Below the pieces are notes generated by a model. The model did not search any database. It had not been told where the DNA came from and was given only the letters and a program-made list of their open reading frames with translations. A stretch of 46,788 nucleotides of DNA from a virus (taxonomy: Duplodnaviria; Heunggongvirae; Uroviricota; Caudoviricetes), in IMG/VR virus record IMGVR_UViG_2690315742_000007; one strand, 5' to 3'. Below are positions 3,309 to 42,034 of this stretch, piece by piece. A program made the translations under genes and the position numbers. How positions within the stretch are numbered: position 1 is the stretch's first letter; each line of letters opens with the position of its first letter.

Positions 3309-3884
3309 CTACGGCAGTGCTGGCCATTCAATATCCTGTGCAGTTGACGTATCAACACGGTTCAGCAATACCCGATACTTTTTCCATGCTTCCAGCAACG
3401 AGATTTCTTCCTCCGTTGCAATTTCCAGATCTGCAGCATCCTGAAGCGGCGCAATATGCTCACTGGCTACCTGCATCAGGTTGTTTTTTGTTTCTTCCGC
3501 CTCCCGGATCCGGAACAGTTTTTCTGCTTCCGTATCCTTCACCCAGGCTGTGCCGTTCCACTTCTGAAACTCCCCTTCCGGCGATAACCAGGTAACATTT
3601 TCCGGTAACGGACCGAGTTCAGAAATAAATAACGCGTCGCCGGAAGCCACGTCATAAACCGTTTTACCCCGATGATCTTCAACGAGATGCCACGATGACT
3701 CATCACTGTTGAAAACAGCCACGAAGCCAGCCGGAATATCTGGCGGTGCAATATCGGTACTGTTTGCTGGCAGACCTGTATGAGGCGGAATATATGCATC
3801 ACCTTCACCAATAAATTCATTAGTTCCGGCCAGCAGATTATAAATTTTTATGGTCCGTGGTTGTTCACTCATTCTGAATGCCAT
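3309..3884 (-). CDS. tfa: Tail fiber assembly protein
   Basis: 191-aa ORF directly downstream of stf; recognisable Tfa-family sequence (lambda tfa / TfaQ-like). Confidence 0.8.
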
Positions 3885-16070: not shown

Positions 16071-16901
16071 ACCGGACTCCTCCTGCGATCCCTTCTGATA
16101 CTGTCATCAGCATTACGTCATCCTCCGTCATGTCCGCCACATCCGGGGAAGCGGGGATAACTTCATTCCCGTCCGGGCCAAAACGAACGCCTCCGGCAAG
16201 CCCTGCCGCTTTCTGCATCAGCACATCATCTTCAGGCTCTTCGTCAGCCTCGCGCCGGTTCAGCAGACTGAAATCCAGCGGATGCATATCCGGATCGCTG
16301 AAAAACAGGCTGAGCACGGTGTACGTCAGCCCGGAAAAGTGCATATCCAGCAGAACATCATGAAAATAATGGGTACTGTAAAAGCGGTGCCAGTCGGCAT
16401 ACTCCGTGGATGACATCCCGGCAAGCATGGCACGCCAGTCGGGTCGCCCCATCTCGCGCGCCAGTTTCAGGGCAAAACTCAGCTCACCGTCGAACACTTT
16501 CCCGCAGAAACAGGCTCTGCAGGCCCGGCGTCCTCTGCCTGTTCAGGGGCATCATTCACCACAAACTCATACATACCAGACAGCCGGTACACCACGTTTT
16601 CAGCATGAGAAATTGCCTCCGTGGGCCAGGTGGTAAGCACTTCCTGCTCAATCTGTTTAACGGCTTCATTCATGGACGGCATCTGCGTCTTCTGCGGATG
16701 GTTATGCCACAGGGACATCGCCACCAGAAACGCGCCGGTTCTGATGGCGTCTTCCACAGTAAACTTCCGGTTGCTGTCTGACTCCGCCTGTTCTGCCTGC
16801 CGTTTCATCAGGGCGAGATGCTCAATGCGCTGCAGGGCTGACAGTTCAGAAAGCGTGACGGTCACACCGTTATGTTCAAATGATTCGGTTTTCAGGAACA
16901 T
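16063..16901 (-). CDS. T: Tail assembly chaperone G-T fusion, made by programmed -1 ribosomal frameshift
   Basis: The T-frame ORF (16063..16497) overlaps the 3' end of G; the slippery heptamer GGGAAAG lies on the minus strand at 16497..16503, exactly where lambda shifts. Confidence 0.7.
16479..16901 (-). CDS. G: Tail assembly chaperone G
   Basis: 140 aa; recognisable lambda G (MFLKTESFEHNGVTVTLSELSALQRIEHLALMKRQAEQ...). Confidence 0.85.
   Translation of the reverse strand: MFLKTESFEHNGVTVTLSELSALQRIEHLALMKRQAEQAESDSNRKFTVEDAIRTGAFLVAMSLWHNHPQKTQMPSMNEAVKQIEQEVLTTWPTEAISHAENVVYRLSGMYEFVVNDAPEQAEDAGPAEPVSAGKCSTVS
16497..16503 (-). promoter_or_regulatory. Programmed -1 frameshift slippery site (G GGA AAG) for G-T
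   Basis: Plus strand reads ctttccc, i.e. GGGAAAG on the minus strand, in the G reading frame just before the G stop. Confidence 0.75.
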
Positions 16902-16916
16902 CGCTGACTCTCCGGA

Positions 16917-17657
16917 TTAACTGGCGGTGACGGTAATTTCTGCAACCGCAGCAAACTCACCATTACCGGATACAACCGGAATGTTGACCTTGCCTGCAGC
17001 AACGCCGTTCACGGTGATGGTCATACCACTGACCGACACGGTGGCTTTTGTTTTATCCGCAGACACCGCACGAAAGCTCTTGTCGGTTACGCCCTCCGGC
17101 TGGAAGGCCACGGTCAGCGTGGTGCTCTGCCCTTTCACCACCGAGGTGCTGGCAGGCGTCACGGTCATGCCGGTTGCCGCTGTTACCGTGCTGCGATCTT
17201 CTGCCATCGACGGACGTCCCACATTGGTGACTTTCACCGTGCGGGTGATCACTTCCTTCGCCGTCACCGCCTTACCGATACTGCTGACCCAGCCACGGAA
17301 CACATCGACCGTGCCGTTCGGGAAGCGGATTTTATAGGCACGGGTATCGCCTTCATTAAACCACGCCAGCAGCGCCTGCTGCCCCTGCTCTCCGGGCATC
17401 CACGCCAGCGTGAAGCTGGTATCTCCGGCAGATTTCTGCCCCTGCCCGGTCGCAGTCCAGTCTGCATCTTCATCATCGAGATAGCTGTCGTCATAGGACT
17501 CAGCGGTCAGTTCGCCGGGCGTCAGGTCTTTAACTTTTGCCAGACGCGACCAGTCAACGTCTGAAAGCGGATTCGCATAAGGGTCACCGCTCCCCTTATA
17601 AACCCACAGGGTGGTCCCGGCACCTTTCACCGGCATTGTAGGATTTGGTACAGGCAT
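16917..17657 (-). CDS. V: Major tail protein V, with C-terminal Ig-like domain
   Basis: Start at internal Met giving [20 protein letters not shown]..., 246 aa as in lambda V. Confidence 0.9.
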
Positions 17658-17664
17658 AGCGTCC

Positions 17665-18060
17665 TCACATTTCATAGGTAATGACATAAGTCAGATCGGC
17701 TGAACTCCACAGGCCCGCATCATCGTCGCGCCGGTAGTCATAGCCGCTGGCCACCATACTGGTGATCAAATCTGACAGTGCCGGGATATCGCTCATCACC
17801 GGATAAATCCGGGACTCCATCCACGCATCCAGCTCTGAATCCGGCACCTGAGCAGGCAGGAAAACTTCGATATGCAGCTCCGCCTGCCAGGTATCGCTGT
17901 CCAGCTCTTCGCCCGTGTATTCAGCGCCGGTGAGATAAACGGCAACTGCCGGAAAATCCGCCTCATCAAAAACAGCGGGGCGACCATCAAAAAACGTCGC
18001 CCCGGTGTCATGCTTCTCCAGTGCATCCAGTACGGCTGCACGGAGTTCAGTATGTTTCAT
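17665..18060 (-). CDS. U: Tail terminator protein U
   Basis: 131 aa, lambda U length and sequence character. Confidence 0.85.
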
Positions 18061-18634
18061 CGCTTTATTACCATCCTCAGTTGATGCTGCAGCGCATAGC
18101 CCAGCTCTTTCGGAAGACGTTCACGCCGTATCCGCTCAATATTTTGTTTAAACGCCGTGGTCAGCGGCACCGCCATCGGGATTTTCACCACATCAATGGG
18201 GTAACGGTTTTTCCCGGCCACACGCTGCATGACATGCCACCGGCCATTTTTCAGTTGCTGAATAAACGCGCCGGGAATACGACGGTTACCCACCACAAGC
18301 ACGCTGCCGCCACCTTTCAGGGATGAACGCTGCCCCTTTTTACGACGCCTGCGGCGCGAAAGGACAACCCGCGCATTACCCAGCTTGATTACGGGCAAAT
18401 CCCCCGGTTAACTTTGATTCTGGCCTGCGGATTTTTGACCGTGGCCCTTTTCAGCCTGGCCCTTTCCTTTACCAGTTTCCGGCGTACCTTTGTCTCACGG
18501 GCAACTTGTGACGCCGACTGCGATATCGCGGATGAAGCAACGCGGTTAATGGCCATTGCGGCGGCACCAGGCACCGCCGTTTTGCTGATACGGCTGAGGT
18601 TTTCAACGGCCTGCTCAAGACCTTTTATGGCCAT
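18057..18634 (-). pseudogene. Z: Tail completion protein Z, split by a -1 frameshift in a G/C homopolymer
   Basis: Track ORFs 18389..18634 (MAIKGLEQ...KVNRG) and 18057..18398 (PVIKLGNARVV...) together cover a lambda-like Z but are out of frame. The join is a C5 run at 18401..18405 where lambda, as I recall, has six. Confidence 0.7.
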
Positions 18635-18645
18635 ACATCCCCCTT

Positions 18646-18999
18646 TCAGCGGCGACGGTTAACGGCAGGCGGTACGCCCCGTCCAAGCCAGAGATGACAA
18701 CTTCCGCCATCATCCGGCGAAACCCGATCTACCCAGAAATTTTCCTCACCGATGGTCAGCGTGTCTCCACGCCGCAGCTGCCGCACCTCATCAGTCCGGA
18801 CAAACAGGGACGGGCTGGAGCCTTCAACGCGCACGCCCTGTCCGGCATAGCTGATATTTTCAGGGTCATCAAAAACACCACGTATCACCGCACCTGACTG
18901 CTCACCGGATGTCATGGTGGCTGACGTTCCCATGTACCCGCGTATCGTTTCATCGGCGCGGGCAATGGCAGCATCGAACAGGTTATCGAAATCAGCCAC
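18646..18999 (-). CDS. FII: Head-tail joining protein FII
   Basis: 117 aa, lambda FII length and position. Confidence 0.85.
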   Translation of the reverse strand: MADFDNLFDAAIARADETIRGYMGTSATMTSGEQSGAVIRGVFDDPENISYAGQGVRVEGSSPSLFVRTDEVRQLRRGDTLTIGEENFWVDRVSPDDGGSCHLWLGRGVPPAVNRRR

Positions 19000-28162: not shown

Positions 28163-28508
28163 GATGGTGTTAACTCCAGTCATCGCTGGCACTACCACTG
28201 CTGGTTCAGAGTTAAAAAAAACTATGATTTTTTTCATGATGTTACCGTAGTATGTGAGTATCCATCGAATAGACACCAAGCAAAAAAGCTCCCGAAGGAG
28301 CCTTCATTTTCACTTTTTTAAATCCAACGACAGACGGCTGGCATTTAAGTATTGTGAAATATTATCAAATGTAATCATCATTGATTTACAAAAGATACAT
28401 TTTGCCCCGAAAGGATTCATGTCAGAAACATCAAAAGATGATGTTCTATACTGGGAACCATGACAACACGGGCATCTAAAGTGAATATGGTTTGTAATAT
28501 TGTCTACC

Positions 28509-28721
28509 TCAAAGCGCCACTACATGAACAGCGGCAGGACCTTTAGGTCCGTTCTCAATACCAAATTCAACTTCCTGATTCTCAGTTAATGTTTTGAAAT
28601 CGTTGCTCTGAATTGCTGAGAAATGGACAAACACATCTTTGCTGCCATCTTTCGGCGTGATGAAACCAAAACCTTTTTCAGGGTTAAACCATTTCACTAA
28701 ACCAGTCATTTTGTTAGACAT
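28509..28721 (-). CDS. cspI: Cold shock protein CspI (CspA family)
   Basis: 70 aa, [38 protein letters not shown]...; RNP1/RNP2 motifs. Confidence 0.85.
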
Positions 28722-29083
28722 AATTATTACCTTTTGAAGAAATTAGCCCTTGGGCAGAATGGTCCGAAAAAAAATATCAGAGAGAAAAACCAACAAGGAA
28801 ATCTCAAGAGGTACAAATAATAAAATTATAACAATGACTGCTTCAGATAAATTTGTAACAAACCAGAACACCATTAACGCATGATTAACCACCCATAGCA
28901 AGGATTACTTTTGTAAAGAAAAACACAGCAATGAAAGAATAGCTTTATTTATTAATAAAACGTGTCATTCTGATTAAGACCTTTTATCTTACCCTTAAGA
29001 TTTCAGGAATTTTGGCTCATGGAAGAGTCCTTTTTATTTAAATTTTACATTCCGCGATGTAAATGTTCCGATTTAATATTACC

Positions 29084-30639: not shown

Positions 30640-30857
30640 ATCCTCACCCCGATGTACACGGATGGTGCAATATGTTTGAAAAGATCGGAGTCTACGGGGT
30701 AGTTTTGACAGCACACGTTGTTCTCAACGGCGCTAAAAAACATACACATTAAAAATGTGGGTAATTATTTTGAAAGAAAGTCATATATAAAATAATAATA
30801 CGAGAAATGTTTTCATATTTAGTGTACTGTATACGGCCATTTATACAGGAAAAGCCT

Positions 30858-31112: not shown

Positions 31113-31391
31113 GATTGTGGTGCTTTTTGTGGGAGTCATCCACTTACGCACTTTGTTTTGCCATGCCAGCAGTTAGCTTCTGCTGTAAAACTATTCATGC
31201 AGCAAACCTGCACTTCACCACAATGGTTAGCATACTTTTCCTGATTAAGATTTTGCCAAATATGCTAGCCATTGTTTCATGTATTGGACCTCCTTACTTT
31301 TTATTAAAGAGATCCAATATTCACTACTCTGTCCGTATCTCTACTCAGGCATCAGCCTTCTTCGTTATCGTATACAGACGAGCGATGAATT

Positions 31392-31607
31392 TTAATCAGT
31401 AATGATGACATTTGCTGCTGCAGGACCTTTAGCACCACTCTCTATAGAGAAGGTAACCTTTTGACCTTCAAATAAGGTTCGATAATTATCATTCTGAATC
31501 GCAGAAAAATGCACAAACACATCTTTACTACCATCAACAGGAGAAATAAAGCCGAAACCTTTATCAGCGTTAAACCATTTTACTAAACCAGTCATTTTAT
31601 TTGACAT
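31392..31607 (-). CDS. cspB: Cold shock protein CspB
   Basis: 71 aa, [34 protein letters not shown]... Confidence 0.85.
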
Positions 31608-31907
31608 TCTACATTCCTTAACTTGAGCCTTTCGGCATAAATGGTTTGCATAACAGAAACGACTTCGTACTTAATTGGAGAGACTCAAAGAAGGAATAAG
31701 TGAATAACACCTGAAATGAGAACTGCTTTAGTAAACTACTTCGTATATCGTCTGTTCTTCAAACCGACGCAATCATTAACGCATAGTTGAACATATGAAG
31801 CAATGTTTATTTTAGACATCCAGCCATCTTCAACCCCATCAAAAAACTATAGCTTTCTTCAGGAACGTGTGTATAGTGCGCCAAGTTATCAGTATTAAGG
31901 AATTTTT

Positions 31908-36999: not shown

Positions 37000-38650
37000 G
37001 GGGACAGTCCACAAAACTGCCAACTTCCGCTTCTTGCTCTTAGCGGACATTAGCATAGGCTATTTACCATAACGCCTCATTACGCGCACCGCCCAGACTG
37101 ACTCAGCGCGTTTCTGGCATATCCCCGGTAAAACAAGTAACAAACCACCCGAAAATGAACACCAGAAACGCGACTTAAGAATCTACCCTATGAATGGATA
37201 TGCACTCAACCGAATCGATCTTGGTTTCAATCTTTTTTATCGGGATCAGGCTTCTTTTTAGGTAACTTCGGGGGCTTAACTTGCTGATGACTTTGCGTTC
37301 GGCGCGTAAGCCAGGGATGGTCAGCTTTAGGTTTAACATAGTATTTTGAGCGTAAATCAATACGGGCATTATCCACTCGTTCATGGACACTCTTTTCATC
37401 ATCCAGTGGTATAGGCTCCGGGCCATCAACATACTTTTCCCAGCCCAGCGCTTTCCCGTCATACAGAACGTTAATTTCACCGTCAAAGTTCTCGCATACA
37501 GTAACAACCGAATGCCTAAGTCGATATCCCCGGCCCTCACTGCGTACCTGAAACGCACTGCTTTTGTACTGGAAAGTGAGATTTTTAGACAGAACGCGCT
37601 TCGCCTGTAGGCTGAAGATATAACCCAGTTCCTCTTCAGAATGGTGCACATCAAGATGAGCATTATCAGTAGTACGAGGCGACGTAGCGAACCGGTTGTT
37701 ATAGGCTTCAATAAAGGTCGGCAACCATGCATTTGCTGTTTCAATATCACTGATATTCTGAAGCCGCATTTCTTTGACCAGCCTGTCCTGTAGTGTCTGA
37801 TTGGCGCGCTCTACCCGCCCTTTTGCCTGCGGGCTGTTGGCATGGATTGGCTCGATGCCCAGTGTCTTTATCGCACGAGTGAACTGGGTCAGCTCACCTT
37901 CCCGCTCTGGGTTATTTACCCTGAATATACTGTGTCTATCAGAGTAGAGAGCGAGCGGTACGCCATGATCATTAAGGTAACCCCGGAGGGTTTCCATGTA
38001 AGCCCGGGTTGTTTCAGCAGGCACAAAACGCAACGCCATCAACGCACTGGTGGCATCATCAATGAAAACGATCAGTGTACATCTGGGGCCTCGATTTTCA
38101 AACCAGTCATGAGGTGAGCCATCAATCTGGATCAGTTCACCGTAAGATGGTCGTCGCATGCGGCGTTGATATATACGGGCAATTTTACGACGGCGTTCAC
38201 GCCATAACCCCTCTTCTATCATCCACTTTCTGAGAGTTTCAACGGATAAAGATAAACCGTGTATCTCGCGCAATTTTTCGCACGCAAACGTAGGTCCAAA
38301 ATCAGCGTAACGGCCTTTGAGGAGTGAAATTACTGTTGCTCTGAATTCAGTAGAAAAGGAATTATTAGGACGCTTTCCACGTCGGTGGGAAACCAGACCA
38401 GAAGGCCCTTCATTTCTATACCGTTGCACCAGACGTTTAACCTGCCGAATAGAAATGCCAATGCGTGCCGCAGCTTGTTCCTGAATAATCTGAAGTCGGT
38501 GGAGTTCCTTATGACTCATCGTAACAGTCTCTTTGATCATGAAAAATCCCCCAGAGAATTGTCTGGGGACATTTTAGAATGGTTCAAAGGGGACATTACA
38601 GCTTGGTGTTAACAATAGCCTGCTTCTCCGTGCCTTTCGGCACGTAAGAG
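37000..38650 (-). mobile_element. Probable insertion element carrying the rve transposase; ends not resolved
   Basis: Transposase gene at a position that in K-12 Qin holds integrase and ydfW/ydfX remnants. I could not find clean terminal inverted repeats by eye; hairpin-like GGGGACA motifs occur near both ends. Confidence 0.4.
37227..38540 (-). CDS. DDE (rve/integrase-core) transposase-like protein with N-terminal HTH; IS481-like by architecture
   Basis: 437-aa ORF: N-terminal HTH (IGISIRQVKRLVQRY), central DDE region with a ...SPQAKGRVERANQTL... motif. Family call is from motif pattern only. Confidence 0.65.
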   Translation of the reverse strand: MIKETVTMSHKELHRLQIIQEQAAARIGISIRQVKRLVQRYRNEGPSGLVSHRRGKRPNNSFSTEFRATVISLLKGRYADFGPTFACEKLREIHGLSLSVETLRKWMIEEGLWRERRRKIARIYQRRMRRPSYGELIQIDGSPHDWFENRGPRCTLIVFIDDATSALMALRFVPAETTRAYMETLRGYLNDHGVPLALYSDRHSIFRVNNPEREGELTQFTRAIKTLGIEPIHANSPQAKGRVERANQTLQDRLVKEMRLQNISDIETANAWLPTFIEAYNNRFATSPRTTDNAHLDVHHSEEELGYIFSLQAKRVLSKNLTFQYKSSAFQVRSEGRGYRLRHSVVTVCENFDGEINVLYDGKALGWEKYVDGPEPIPLDDEKSVHERVDNARIDLRSKYYVKPKADHPWLTRRTQSHQQVKPPKLPKKKPDPDKKD

Positions 38651-38874
38651 GCTAACCTACATGTGTCTAGCATGAAATTGGCCTCAGATTAATGTTAAGC
38701 GTCTTGCAGGACGCGTAATGTTAACTGGGGCTTTTCTCTATCTGCCGTTGGTGTCCATGCCCGAGGCAGATAGCCTCAAGCACCCGCAGTCATTCTACTT
38801 AACTAAGATTTCCCCGCAAACCGTTTTTGTCCAGCACAGTAAATATCCAACTAAACCAATGGAGTTCGCTGTAT

Positions 38875-39093
38875 TTACCGCCAGTATTCAATGCACATGA
38901 CCGCCATGAACACCCCTAAAAAAAGGGCATTTATATATCCAAATATTAATATCAAAACATCAACTTTTTCCATATACCTTGCTGTGAAGATGATGGGCAT
39001 ACATGATGCGAACAACCAGAACGCAACAAACAAAAACTGCAATGCGTTTTTCATTATTCCTCCTACAATCAATGTGCAATTACATTTAAACAC
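38875..39093 (-). CDS. Hypothetical small membrane protein (two predicted TM helices)
   Basis: 72-aa ORF, strongly hydrophobic (LQFLFVAFWLFASCMPIIF ... ILIFGYINALFLGVFMAVMCI). No recognisable family. Confidence 0.3.
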   Translation of the reverse strand: MFKCNCTLIVGGIMKNALQFLFVAFWLFASCMPIIFTARYMEKVDVLILIFGYINALFLGVFMAVMCIEYWR

Positions 39094-39099
39094 ACCTCA

Positions 39100-39784
39100 A
39101 TTTGGCCGGACATATAAATATCTAAACCAGAAAAAATCACTTACATAGCGTTACAAACTCTTTAGTCTAAAGGTTCATCGTAAAACATTCCCCATACTTA
39201 TCAGTCCGTTCCGCGCCAGGTAGCTCATTGCCTTATCTGGCAACCTGTAATCAGGTTTCCGCTTTTTCAGTTGGCTGGTCGTTTAACCGACATAGTTAAT
39301 CCATTAATCTAGTTGCCGGATGTTGGTGGATTTTCGCGTTTTAGTTGTTCATAAAAGTGCACAGCTTTAACCAGTTCTTCTGATGTAACTGGGACTGGTG
39401 AGGCAGTGAATAAGGCCTGAATTTGATAGTTCGGCCTGTCGTTACAATCCTCTTTTTTCGGTACATATTTCCAGTCACCAGACCACTACTTCCCCTGAAA
39501 GTCCGTAACGCCTTTTTTCACGTAGCGATATCGCCATGCCACTGGTTTTGCTTGCCCCGCCGTTTCATGCCCTTCCTGATAATTAATCTCGCTCATTCAT
39601 CGCCCCACTCATCACAATATGCTTCGACCGGAGTTTTTCCCGCTTCATAGTCATCACGCTAGGATTCGACATCAGCAGCACTTCCACCGCGTAACTCACC
39701 ATAGTCCATTAATAGTTCATCCCGCTCTTCAAAACTGATGTTATATTTAGCTGAACAAAAATCAGCCACTTTGTTCTTCCTCAT
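39100..39784 (-). pseudogene. Decayed early-region ORF remnants downstream of the ydaT-like gene
   Basis: Minus-strand reading gives a string of short ORFs (40, 23, 35 and about 58 codons) interrupted by stops; the first starts in an ATGA overlap with the ydaT-like stop. No ORF of 60 aa or more on this strand. Confidence 0.35.
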
Positions 39785-40236
39785 CGTCTTTTATTTCGTG
39801 GTATGAGTAATGTTTCACGATCCACTACGGCAGGATCAGCAAAAAGCAGTCCGGACTCCACCACATCGCCATATTCTTTGTTTAACCCGGCGATCATGCA
39901 CGTGATGCTTTTTCCGTCAGTAATTTCACGATACAACCTGAAATCATTAATCCGGATAGCCTCCATAATTGCAGGCACTAGCGCCGTGAACTTTTCACGC
40001 TTATCCCTGGTGTCGATAGCCTTCCAGCGTTCAAATATCTTCACTCGATTAACGCCAAGCGCTCGCTGATCAATCGCGCCACCTTCATATGTGACACGCT
40101 GAACATCGATGTTCGGGCGCTCTTTCAAAGCCCAGAATGCTTCAGTGATTAATATCGTCGCCTGCTCCTGTGTCATTCCTGGTCGACATATCCAGGCATC
40201 CAGAGCCTCACGAGCCTGTTCAGGAGTGATTTTCAT
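39781..40236 (-). CDS. YdaT-like protein, second gene of the dicC (cro-side) operon
   Basis: 151-aa ORF overlapping the dicC 3' end; resembles Rac YdaT (shared ...ALVPAI.../...ALLPAI... region). K-12 Qin has only fragments (ydfX/ydfW) here. Confidence 0.5.
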   Translation of the reverse strand: MKITPEQAREALDAWICRPGMTQEQATILITEAFWALKERPNIDVQRVTYEGGAIDQRALGVNRVKIFERWKAIDTRDKREKFTALVPAIMEAIRINDFRLYREITDGKSITCMIAGLNKEYGDVVESGLLFADPAVVDRETLLIPRNKRR

Positions 40237-40450
40237 TGTTCAACCGCCCCGCCCGCTTCGTCTTACGATATTCATCATAAACTTTGGGATCATACTGAAG
40301 CTCCCCGCCAGATGCCTCCTGTAGACGCATCGCGCGACCTTCGGGAACTAAATCCCCTTTCCAGCTATAAAGCGAAGCCAAACGAATACCTGCTGCTTGT
40401 GCAAGTTTTGTTTTTGAACCGAAATACAAAAGAGCGTCAGTTTTAAGCAT
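40220..40450 (-). CDS. dicC: DicC, Cro-like repressor of the immunity region
   Basis: 76 aa, MLKTDALLYFGSKTKLAQAAGIRLASLYSWKGDLVPEGRAMRLQEASGGELQYDP... Confidence 0.85.
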   Translation of the reverse strand: MLKTDALLYFGSKTKLAQAAGIRLASLYSWKGDLVPEGRAMRLQEASGGELQYDPKVYDEYRKTKRAGRLNNENHS

Positions 40451-41981: not shown

Positions 41982-42034
41982 TTTCTGGTGACGTTTGGCG
42001 GTATCAGTTTTACTCCGTGACTGCTCTGCCGCCC
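41982..42034 (+). ncRNA. dicF: DicF small regulatory RNA (processed from the ydfABC-dicF-dicB transcript)
   Basis: tttctggtgacgtttggcggtatcagttttactccgtgactgctctgccgccc followed by a T-run; matches the 53-nt DicF sequence as I remember it. Confidence 0.8.

What the first reader, a model, noticed from the sequence alone, without database searches (positions are those of the whole stretch)
18057..18634. Tail completion gene Z split by a -1 frameshift in a homopolymer
The two track ORFs at 18389..18634 and 18057..18398 together encode a lambda-like Z but in different frames. The break is at a C5 run (plus strand 18401..18405; G5 on the coding strand) where lambda, as I recall it, has six, changing ...KVNRGDLPVIK... 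to ...KVNRGICP-stop. Every other structural gene looks intact. This is either an assembly or sequencing error at a homopolymer, or a real lesion expected to reduce particle infectivity.
Basis: seen in the sequence. Interest (0 to 1): 0.5.

Follow-up and report, generated by a model that had tools for sequence, protein, structure and literature searches.

The report
Real one-base frameshift in prophage gene Z
The tail-completion gene Z of this lambda-like prophage, which sits at the Qin site of E. coli, is broken by loss of one G from a run of six; the same break is in several independently sequenced sister strains, so it is a real inherited mutation, an ordinary step in prophage decay.

Summary
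On the coding (minus) strand the window reads GTT AAC CGG GGG ATT TGC CCG TAA. The run is C5 at plus-strand 18401-18405. Lambda, E. coli W and about 3400 complete E. coli genomes have six G there. The two ORFs (81 aa and 113 aa) match positions 1-76 and 79-190 of Pfam Minor_tail_Z.

The window is 100% identical over 21.6 kb to draft contig JRQB01000025.1. It is a lambdoid prophage at the Qin (ydfJ) site.

The same G5 allele is present in six other records of this prophage lineage:
- the complete genome A27, where PGAP already calls Z "frameshifted";
- a Logan assembly of SRR10990242, with 0 differences from the window over 21.1 kb;
- three NCBI draft assemblies, each with its own private SNPs.

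A sequencing or assembly error is therefore very unlikely. This is a clonally inherited 1-bp deletion.

One sister assembly has G6, inside a 2.1-kb recombination tract that spans the site. None of 78 matching phage records carries G5.

All other structural genes are intact, but the early region has no replication genes, so the prophage is probably already defective. This is ordinary prophage pseudogenisation and of low interest.

The parts
18401..18405 (-). G5 run on the coding strand (C5 on the plus strand). This is the site of the 1-bp deletion relative to the G6 of lambda and nearly all relatives.
   Evidence: sequence; alignment with lambda, W, L018 = G6; L017 = G5; 4 of 3411 complete-genome records have G5
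18389..18634 (-). N-terminal Z fragment ORF: 78 native residues plus Ile-Cys-Pro, then TAA at 18389-18391
   Evidence: ORF and translation; PF06763 profile positions 1-76, E 1.3e-28
18057..18398 (-). C-terminal part of Z in the other frame. The mechanical ORF starts at a TTG that is Leu80 of intact Z. No start signal at a suitable distance was seen.
   Evidence: (PF06763 profile positions 79-190, E 2e-47)
18057..18634 (-). The whole Z pseudogene, 578 nt instead of 579. The identical stretch in E. coli A27 is annotated by PGAP as 'phage tail protein, frameshifted'.
   Evidence: A27 locus_tag AOY80_RS11720, pseudogene, frameshifted
17665..18060 (-). Gene U (tail terminator), intact. Its ATG overlaps the Z stop (ATGA), so its translation is probably coupled to Z and could be lowered by the premature stop. 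That effect is inferred.
   Evidence: 4-nt overlap 18057-18060; annotation
18646..18999 (-). Gene FII (head-tail joining), intact. It is the upstream neighbour that fixes the lambda gene order FII-Z-U-V.

Best explanation
This is a genuine, clonally inherited 1-bp deletion (G6 to G5) in the tail-completion gene Z of a lambdoid prophage integrated at the Qin (ydfJ) site of E. coli. It most likely arose by replication slippage in the homopolymer. Translation ends three codons after the run, giving an 81-aa fragment that lacks the C-terminal 114 of 192 residues. The gene is therefore a pseudogene. Shown: the lesion, its exact position, and its presence in several independent sister assemblies. 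Inferred: (a) slippage as the origin; (b) loss of gpZ function, which in lambda gives morphologically normal but mostly non-infectious particles; (c) a possible reduction in translation of the overlapping downstream gene U; (d) relaxed selection, because the early region of the prophage has no replication genes and is already decayed.
For: 1. The lesion is in the sequence. It is a single gap against lambda and E. coli W.
2. The window is 100% identical over 21,602 bp to JRQB01000025.1 of GCA_000785775.1.
3. A look-up of the window's exact J protein found the same prophage lineage in other assemblies. G5 is present in L017 (Logan SRR10990242, 0 differences from the window over 21,106 bp), L019, L020 and L022 (2-4 private SNPs each) and in the complete genome A27. 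L019 shares three SNPs with A27, so these are distinct isolates related by descent rather than copies of one file.
4. G5 is rare overall: 4 of 3411 complete-genome records. Independent identical errors in sister assemblies are therefore very improbable.
5. No other indel occurs in the structural module relative to E. coli W, so the assembly is not riddled with homopolymer errors.
6. None of the 78 matching phage records has G5, as expected if phages need Z.
7. PGAP independently annotates the identical site in A27 as a frameshifted pseudogene.
8. The gpZ-minus phenotype is described in PMC11099176.
Against: No raw reads could be inspected. The sequencing technology of GCA_000785775.1 could not be found. 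The window has one further private homopolymer difference, A6 against A7 at 30734-30740 in an intergenic stretch, which could be a sequencing error. The same G5 call also occurs in clearly error-laden long-read assemblies of unrelated prophages, such as 13E0767, where eight other structural genes are also frameshifted. The site can therefore be miscalled. Whether the prophage can be induced at all was not tested, so the phenotypic consequence remains inference.
Confidence: 0.88

Rival explanations
1. Sequencing or assembly artefact: the true genome has six G and the consensus dropped one base in the homopolymer.
For: The lesion is in a homopolymer. The technology of the draft is unknown. The window has another private 1-bp homopolymer difference at 30734-30740. 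G5 at this site appears in error-laden long-read assemblies where many neighbouring genes are also split (L003, L006, L009, L010; 13E0767). The nearest complete genome, A27, carries five private homopolymer indels that its sister assemblies do not support.
Against: G5 is reproduced in the Logan assembly of SRR10990242 and in three NCBI draft assemblies with contigs of 50-85 kb. Each has its own SNPs, and none has any other indel relative to the window. A sister assembly of the same kind (L018) resolves G6 without difficulty. Only 4 of 3411 complete genomes show G5, so this is not a general systematic miscall.
Confidence: 0.06
2. The allele is leaky or still functional. One route is low-level -1 ribosomal slippage of tRNA-Gly on C-GGG-GGA: re-pairing GGG one base back makes GAT the next codon and reproduces the wild-type ...NRGDLPV... 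sequence exactly. The other route is re-initiation giving a two-piece Z. Either could supply enough of this minor virion protein.
For: The sequence geometry allows it: after CGG GGG, a -1 shift re-pairs on GGG and restores the native frame and residues. In lambda virions gpZ was detected by mass spectrometry but not resolved in the structure (PMC10721106). The downstream reading frame is still free of stops.
Against: The site is not a canonical X XXY YYZ heptamer, and no stimulatory element is known or was looked for. The arrangement is not conserved: 3407 of 3411 genomes and all 78 phage records have one ORF, so it is a recent accident and not an evolved signal. The G5 clade differs by at most 4 SNPs per 21 kb, so an intact downstream frame says nothing about selection. 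The candidate TTG start has the G-rich stretch only 1 nt upstream, which is too close for a Shine-Dalgarno site (inference).
Confidence: 0.04
3. Phase-variable (contingency) switch: the G tract toggles between 5 and 6 at high frequency to turn tail completion on and off.
For: G5 recurs in unrelated prophage backgrounds (N3, 2013C-3264, L012). One sister of the window lineage has G6.
Against: The tract is short at 5-6 bases. Within the lineage G5 is stable across all members examined. The single G6 member differs by a 49-SNP recombination tract and not by a simple length change. Overall frequency is about 0.1%. Some recurrences are plainly assembly errors.
Confidence: 0.02

Closest known systems
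Bacteriophage lambda gene Z (gpZ, tail completion protein; UniProt P03731; Pfam PF06763 Minor_tail_Z)
   Same: The DNA differs from lambda Z at 2 bases plus the deletion. The gene order FII-Z-U-V is the same, and so is the ATGA overlap with U. Both halves match the Pfam model end to end.
   Different: One G is missing from the G6 run. The result is an 81-aa truncated product instead of 192 aa.
Qin cryptic prophage locus of E. coli (ydfJ site), in its fuller form as found in E. coli W, ISHS7 and A27
   Same: The flanks and cargo are the same: ydfJ', ynfT, ydfK, pinQ, tfaQ, nohA, cspI/B/F, essD, rrrQ, ydfT (Q), relBE, hokD, dicA/dicC/DicF/dicB, xis, int. The window is 99.9% identical to W over 39.8 kb.
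   Different: W and ISHS7 have intact Z (G6). The window and A27 lineage has G5, and also lacks 2.25 kb of the early region that is present in W.
The stf (side tail fibre) frameshift of laboratory lambda wild type
   Same: It is a real frameshift mutation that inactivates a tail gene in a lambda-type genome and is inherited by all descendants (cited in PMC10721106).
   Different: It is in a different gene. Loss of stf is tolerated by a plaque-forming phage, whereas phages lacking their tail completion protein are reported as not viable (PMC11099176).
Lambda G/G-T programmed -1 ribosomal frameshift
   Same: It is a frame change within the same tail gene cluster. The canonical slippery site GGGAAAG is present in this window at 16497-16503(-).
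   Different: The G-T signal is conserved and evolved. The Z break is a rare mutation absent from 99.9% of relatives and has no canonical heptamer.

Membership tests
Lambda gpZ / Pfam PF06763 Minor_tail_Z tail completion protein | Sequence match to the family model above the curated threshold | tested here: met
   the N-terminal ORF scores 100.6 bits (profile 1-76) and the C-terminal ORF 161.9 bits (profile 79-190); the cutoff is 23.9
Lambda gpZ / Pfam PF06763 Minor_tail_Z tail completion protein | Position between the head-tail joining gene FII and the tail terminator gene U, upstream of the major tail gene V | tested here: met
Lambda gpZ / Pfam PF06763 Minor_tail_Z tail completion protein | A single uninterrupted reading frame of about 192 codons | tested here: not met
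   the frame is broken at the G5 run with a stop after codon 81, so this is a pseudogene of the family and not a functional member
Lambda gpZ / Pfam PF06763 Minor_tail_Z tail completion protein | Needed for infectious particles (tail completion activity) | not testable with these tools
   Known for lambda from the literature (PMC11099176).
Homopolymer sequencing or assembly artefact | Not reproduced in independent assemblies or read sets of the same lineage | tested here: not met
   G5 is reproduced in L017 (Logan SRR10990242), L019, L020, L022 and A27
Homopolymer sequencing or assembly artefact | Accompanied by other homopolymer indels that break neighbouring genes in the same assembly | tested here: not met
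   there is no other indel in the structural module relative to E. coli W, and only one further private indel in 46.8 kb, which is intergenic (30734-30740). Compare 13E0767.
Homopolymer sequencing or assembly artefact | Raw reads disagree with the consensus | not testable with these tools
   No access to reads.
Programmed ribosomal frameshift site | The two-frame arrangement is conserved among relatives | tested here: not met
   3407 of 3411 E. coli records and 78 of 78 phage records have the single-frame G6 form
Programmed ribosomal frameshift site | A canonical slippery heptamer X XXY YYZ in the zero frame | tested here: not met
   the zero-frame context is AAC CGG GGG ATT; only single-tRNA slippage on GGG is conceivable
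Phase-variable simple-sequence contingency locus | Tract length varies among very close relatives by simple gain or loss of a unit | tested here: not met
   all G5 lineage members are invariant; the one G6 relative carries a 49-SNP recombination tract across the site

The most novel reading that the evidence does not exclude
Two readings remain open. First, the G5 allele may be a leaky 'pseudo-pseudogene'. Spontaneous -1 slippage of tRNA-Gly on the G run would recreate exactly wild-type gpZ, and a minor virion protein might be needed in amounts small enough for that to suffice. Second, the G6 sister assembly L018 may show the frameshift being repaired in nature by a 2.1-kb gene-conversion patch from another lambdoid prophage. 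Neither reading is excluded by the data, and neither is specifically supported.
Probability: 0.05. Interest if true: 0.35.

Novelty: already known. Interest (0 to 1): 0.1.

Why it matters
It matters little beyond good annotation. The result shows that the split Z is a true pseudogene that marks a small clade of E. coli carrying this Qin-site prophage. It should not be "corrected" as a sequencing error. Any particles this prophage could make would be expected to be largely non-infectious. As a side result, the case shows how sister short-read assemblies can separate real frameshifts from homopolymer errors: the same test indicates that the tail-fibre and xis frameshifts annotated in the A27 complete genome are probably errors.

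Tried and rejected
- I searched the paper library for the WGS accession of the source assembly (JRQB...) to learn its strain and sequencing technology. Nothing relevant was found.
- I searched the PDB sequences for a solved gpZ structure to place the truncation in the fold. There was no match. PMC10721106 says gpZ was not resolved in the lambda virion structure.
- I looked for the donor of the recombination tract in L018. The best complete-genome match is only 99.0%, so no donor was identified.
- I first assumed the window was the A27 RefSeq sequence. I rejected that: the window differs from A27 by 5 SNPs, 6 homopolymer indels and an ISSen4 insertion, and it matches JRQB01000025.1 exactly.
- I considered programmed frameshifting and phase variation and rejected both on conservation grounds.
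- I considered transcriptional slippage. I rejected it from general knowledge, because such slippage needs long A/T runs and not G5. This was not tested.

Full report
**Observation**

On the minus (coding) strand the window reads ...ATC AAA GTT AAC CGG GGG ATT TGC CCG TAA TCA AGC.... On the plus strand the run is ccccc at exactly 18401-18405, and the stop codon is the complement of 18389-18391.

The mechanical ORF list contains 18389..18634(-), 81 aa, ending KVNRGICP. It also contains 18057..18398(-), 113 aa, starting MPVIKLGNARV, in another frame. Pfam PF06763 (Minor_tail_Z, 190 positions) matches the first ORF over positions 1-76 and the second over 79-190.

I aligned the stretch with lambda J02459 Z, E. 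coli W Z and two sister assemblies. The window has one gap in the G run (five G against six). Otherwise it differs from lambda Z at only two bases. Lambda Z translates to a 192-aa protein with ...KVNRGDLPVIK....

**Where the window comes from**

The window starts at the truncated ydfJ gene and ends at the stop codon of a tyrosine integrase. It is a lambdoid prophage at the Qin locus.

- The late half is lambda-like: Nu1, A, W, B, C, D, E, FI, FII, Z, U, V, G, T, H, M, L, K, I, J, lom, stf, tfa.
- The rest is Qin-like: pinQ, cold-shock genes, essD-rrrQ lysis genes, antiterminator ydfT, relBE, hokD/sok, DicF, dicA, dicC, dicB, exonuclease, xis, int.

The closest complete genome is E. coli A27 (CP028748.1), but the window is not that record. 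It differs by 5 SNPs and 6 homopolymer indels, and it lacks an ISSen4 insertion that A27 has.

A look-up of the window's portal protein, which carries a private SNP, found it only in JRQB01000025.1 of GCA_000785775.1. That is a 115.6-kb draft contig, and it is 100% identical to the window over the 21,602 bp fetched.

**Real mutation or artefact?**

This was the open question in the finding.

An 80-bp query centred on the run finds an exact G5 copy in only 4 of 3411 complete-genome records (A27, N3, 2013C-3264, 13E0767). All the others have the extra base. None of the 78 matching phage records has G5.

The exact 81-aa product is nevertheless on record on 122 contigs, in 193 blocks of the assembly collection. 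Some of those are clearly error-laden long-read assemblies in which terminase, portal, capsid, tape-measure and J genes are also fragmented. In 13E0767, eight other structural genes of the same prophage are also annotated as frameshifted.

The decisive test was a look-up of the window's exact 1137-aa J protein. It retrieved the same prophage lineage from other projects:

| Locus | Source | Contig | G run | Differences from the window |
|---|---|---|---|---|
| L017 | Logan assembly of SRR10990242 | 75.7 kb | G5 | 0 over 21,106 bp |
| L019 | GCA_037486605.1 | 50-85 kb class | G5 | 4 SNPs |
| L020 | GCA_027556565.1 | 50-85 kb class | G5 | 2 SNPs |
| L022 | GCA_017679845.1 | 50-85 kb class | G5 | 3 SNPs |
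| L021 | GCA_029731495.1 | 50-85 kb class | Z not covered | 1 SNP |
| L018 | GCA_034530175.1 | 50-85 kb class | G6 | 50 variants, see below |

Run lengths come from a regular-expression check of each locus and the differences from a site-by-site comparison. None of the G5 loci has an indel relative to the window.

L019 shares three SNPs with A27 (window 2470, 11734, 20696), so these are distinct isolates related by descent. Eighteen further contigs with the same gene neighbourhood as L017 were not shown.

Independent identical errors at a site that is miscalled in at most about 0.1% of complete genomes are not a credible explanation. G5 is an inherited allele of this clade. From my own knowledge, contig sizes and accession styles of this kind are typical of short-read assemblies, for which a 5-versus-6 homopolymer is not a problem. 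I could not verify the platforms.

**The G6 sister**

L018 is identical to the window across 21.1 kb apart from one SNP at 776 and a dense block of 49 variants (48 SNPs plus the extra G) confined to window 16456-18582. That block covers genes G, V, U and most of Z, and it contains the G6 run. This is a recombination tract from another lambdoid element. The best complete-genome match to it is 99.0%, so the donor is not identified.

Two histories are possible. The tract may have repaired a pre-existing G5, or it may have been acquired by a lineage that never had G5. The few SNPs available leave the branching order unresolved.

**Consequences**

The premature stop removes 114 of 192 residues. In lambda, gpZ joins the tail after the terminator gpU. 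Particles lacking it look normal but are mostly non-infectious, which has been attributed to misplaced DNA at the head-tail interface (PMC11099176). gpZ is detected in virions by mass spectrometry but is not resolved structurally (PMC10721106). No PDB entry matches its sequence.

The U start codon overlaps the Z stop codon (ATGA, 18057-18060). Premature termination about 330 nt upstream may therefore also lower U translation. That is an inference.

All other structural genes are intact. There is no other indel relative to E. coli W in the module. Full-length ORFs are present. The normal G-T slippery site GGGAAAG is at 16497-16503(-).

The early region is decayed, however. After dicC (cro-like) there is only a truncated ydaT. 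A degenerate stretch and a partial ISNCY transposase follow. There are no recognisable replication genes, and 2.25 kb present in E. coli W is missing. The prophage is therefore probably not able to replicate on its own, and the Z lesion is one more step in its decay. This last point is an inference.

**Alternatives considered**

- A programmed frameshift is ruled out by the lack of conservation and of a canonical heptamer.
- Phase variation is ruled out by the short tract and its stability within the clade.
- A low level of spontaneous -1 slippage of tRNA-Gly on the G run would recreate wild-type gpZ exactly (sequence geometry). This cannot be excluded, but nothing supports it specifically.

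**Comparison with what is known**

The feature is a pseudogene copy of lambda Z. NCBI's PGAP already labels the identical site in A27 as "phage tail protein, frameshifted", and likewise in N3. Frameshift decay of prophage genes at homopolymers is routine. A classic parallel is the stf frameshift of laboratory lambda (mentioned in PMC10721106). Nothing here is new in kind.

**Verdict**

Of its two alternatives, the real lesion is the one the evidence favours, at about 0.9. The finding is ordinary. Interest is 0.1.

Noticed in passing
window 16456-18582 (compared with L018 = GCA_034530175.1, JAXRBX010000013.1): A sister assembly is identical to the window over 21.1 kb, apart from one SNP at 776, except for a dense 49-variant tract covering G, V, U and most of Z. 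The tract also carries the intact G6 run. This is a recombination patch from another lambdoid element across the frameshift site. It could be a natural repair of Z. The best complete-genome match to the tract is only 99.0%.
   Followed up: partly
window 4090, 4809, 31051, 31088, 45276 (A27 RefSeq CP028748.1 = L015): The A27 complete genome has five private 1-bp homopolymer indels here. Two make its tail fibre gene 'frameshifted' and one breaks xis. The window, E. coli W and ISHS7 do not have the first four; the fifth (45276) could only be compared with the window. L019, the sister of A27, also lacks the two tail-fibre indels; it does not cover the other three sites. These A27 frameshifts are probably assembly errors, unlike the Z one.
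   Followed up: yes
window 30734-30740: The window has A6 where A27, E. coli W and ISHS7 have A7, in the intergenic stretch between essD and ynfU. It is private to the window's assembly. It may be a real mutation or a sequencing error, and no other assembly covering it was examined.
   Followed up: no
window 23006: A private SNP (A where every other relative has T) lies inside the portal gene and changes the protein. The exact portal sequence is on record in only two contigs, which is how the source contig JRQB01000025.1 was identified.
   Followed up: yes
window 37227-40450: The early region is decayed: a partial ISNCY-type transposase (37227-38540), a degenerate stretch, then a truncated ydaT (39781-40236) next to dicC. 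There are no replication genes, and 2.25 kb present in E. coli W is missing at about window 39811. A27 has an ISSen4 copy inserted at window 39277-39280, with a 4-bp overlap in the alignment that looks like a target-site duplication.
   Followed up: partly
window 3343-3541(-), 28482-28867(-), 31376-31768(-), 38614-38785(-), 41983-42034(+): Rfam matches above gathering score: IS009 sRNA inside the tfaQ region, two cspA-type thermoregulator leaders (cspI, cspB), the sok antitoxin of hokD, and DicF. These are the usual Qin cargo.
   Followed up: no
L024 (E. coli 13E0767, CP020107.1) and L003, L006, L009, L010: In these assemblies the same G5 call in Z sits among many other split structural genes (portal, capsid, FI, V, G, T, H and others). 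They look like unpolished long-read assemblies, so the 81-aa 'Z' proteins deposited from them are probably artefacts.
   Followed up: partly
L023 (E. coli N3, CP031609.1, nohD/DLP12-type prophage) and L012 (GCA_019550865.1): These are unrelated lambdoid prophages in which Z alone carries the same G5 frameshift while all neighbouring structural genes are intact. They are possible independent recurrences of the same slippage mutation.
   Followed up: no
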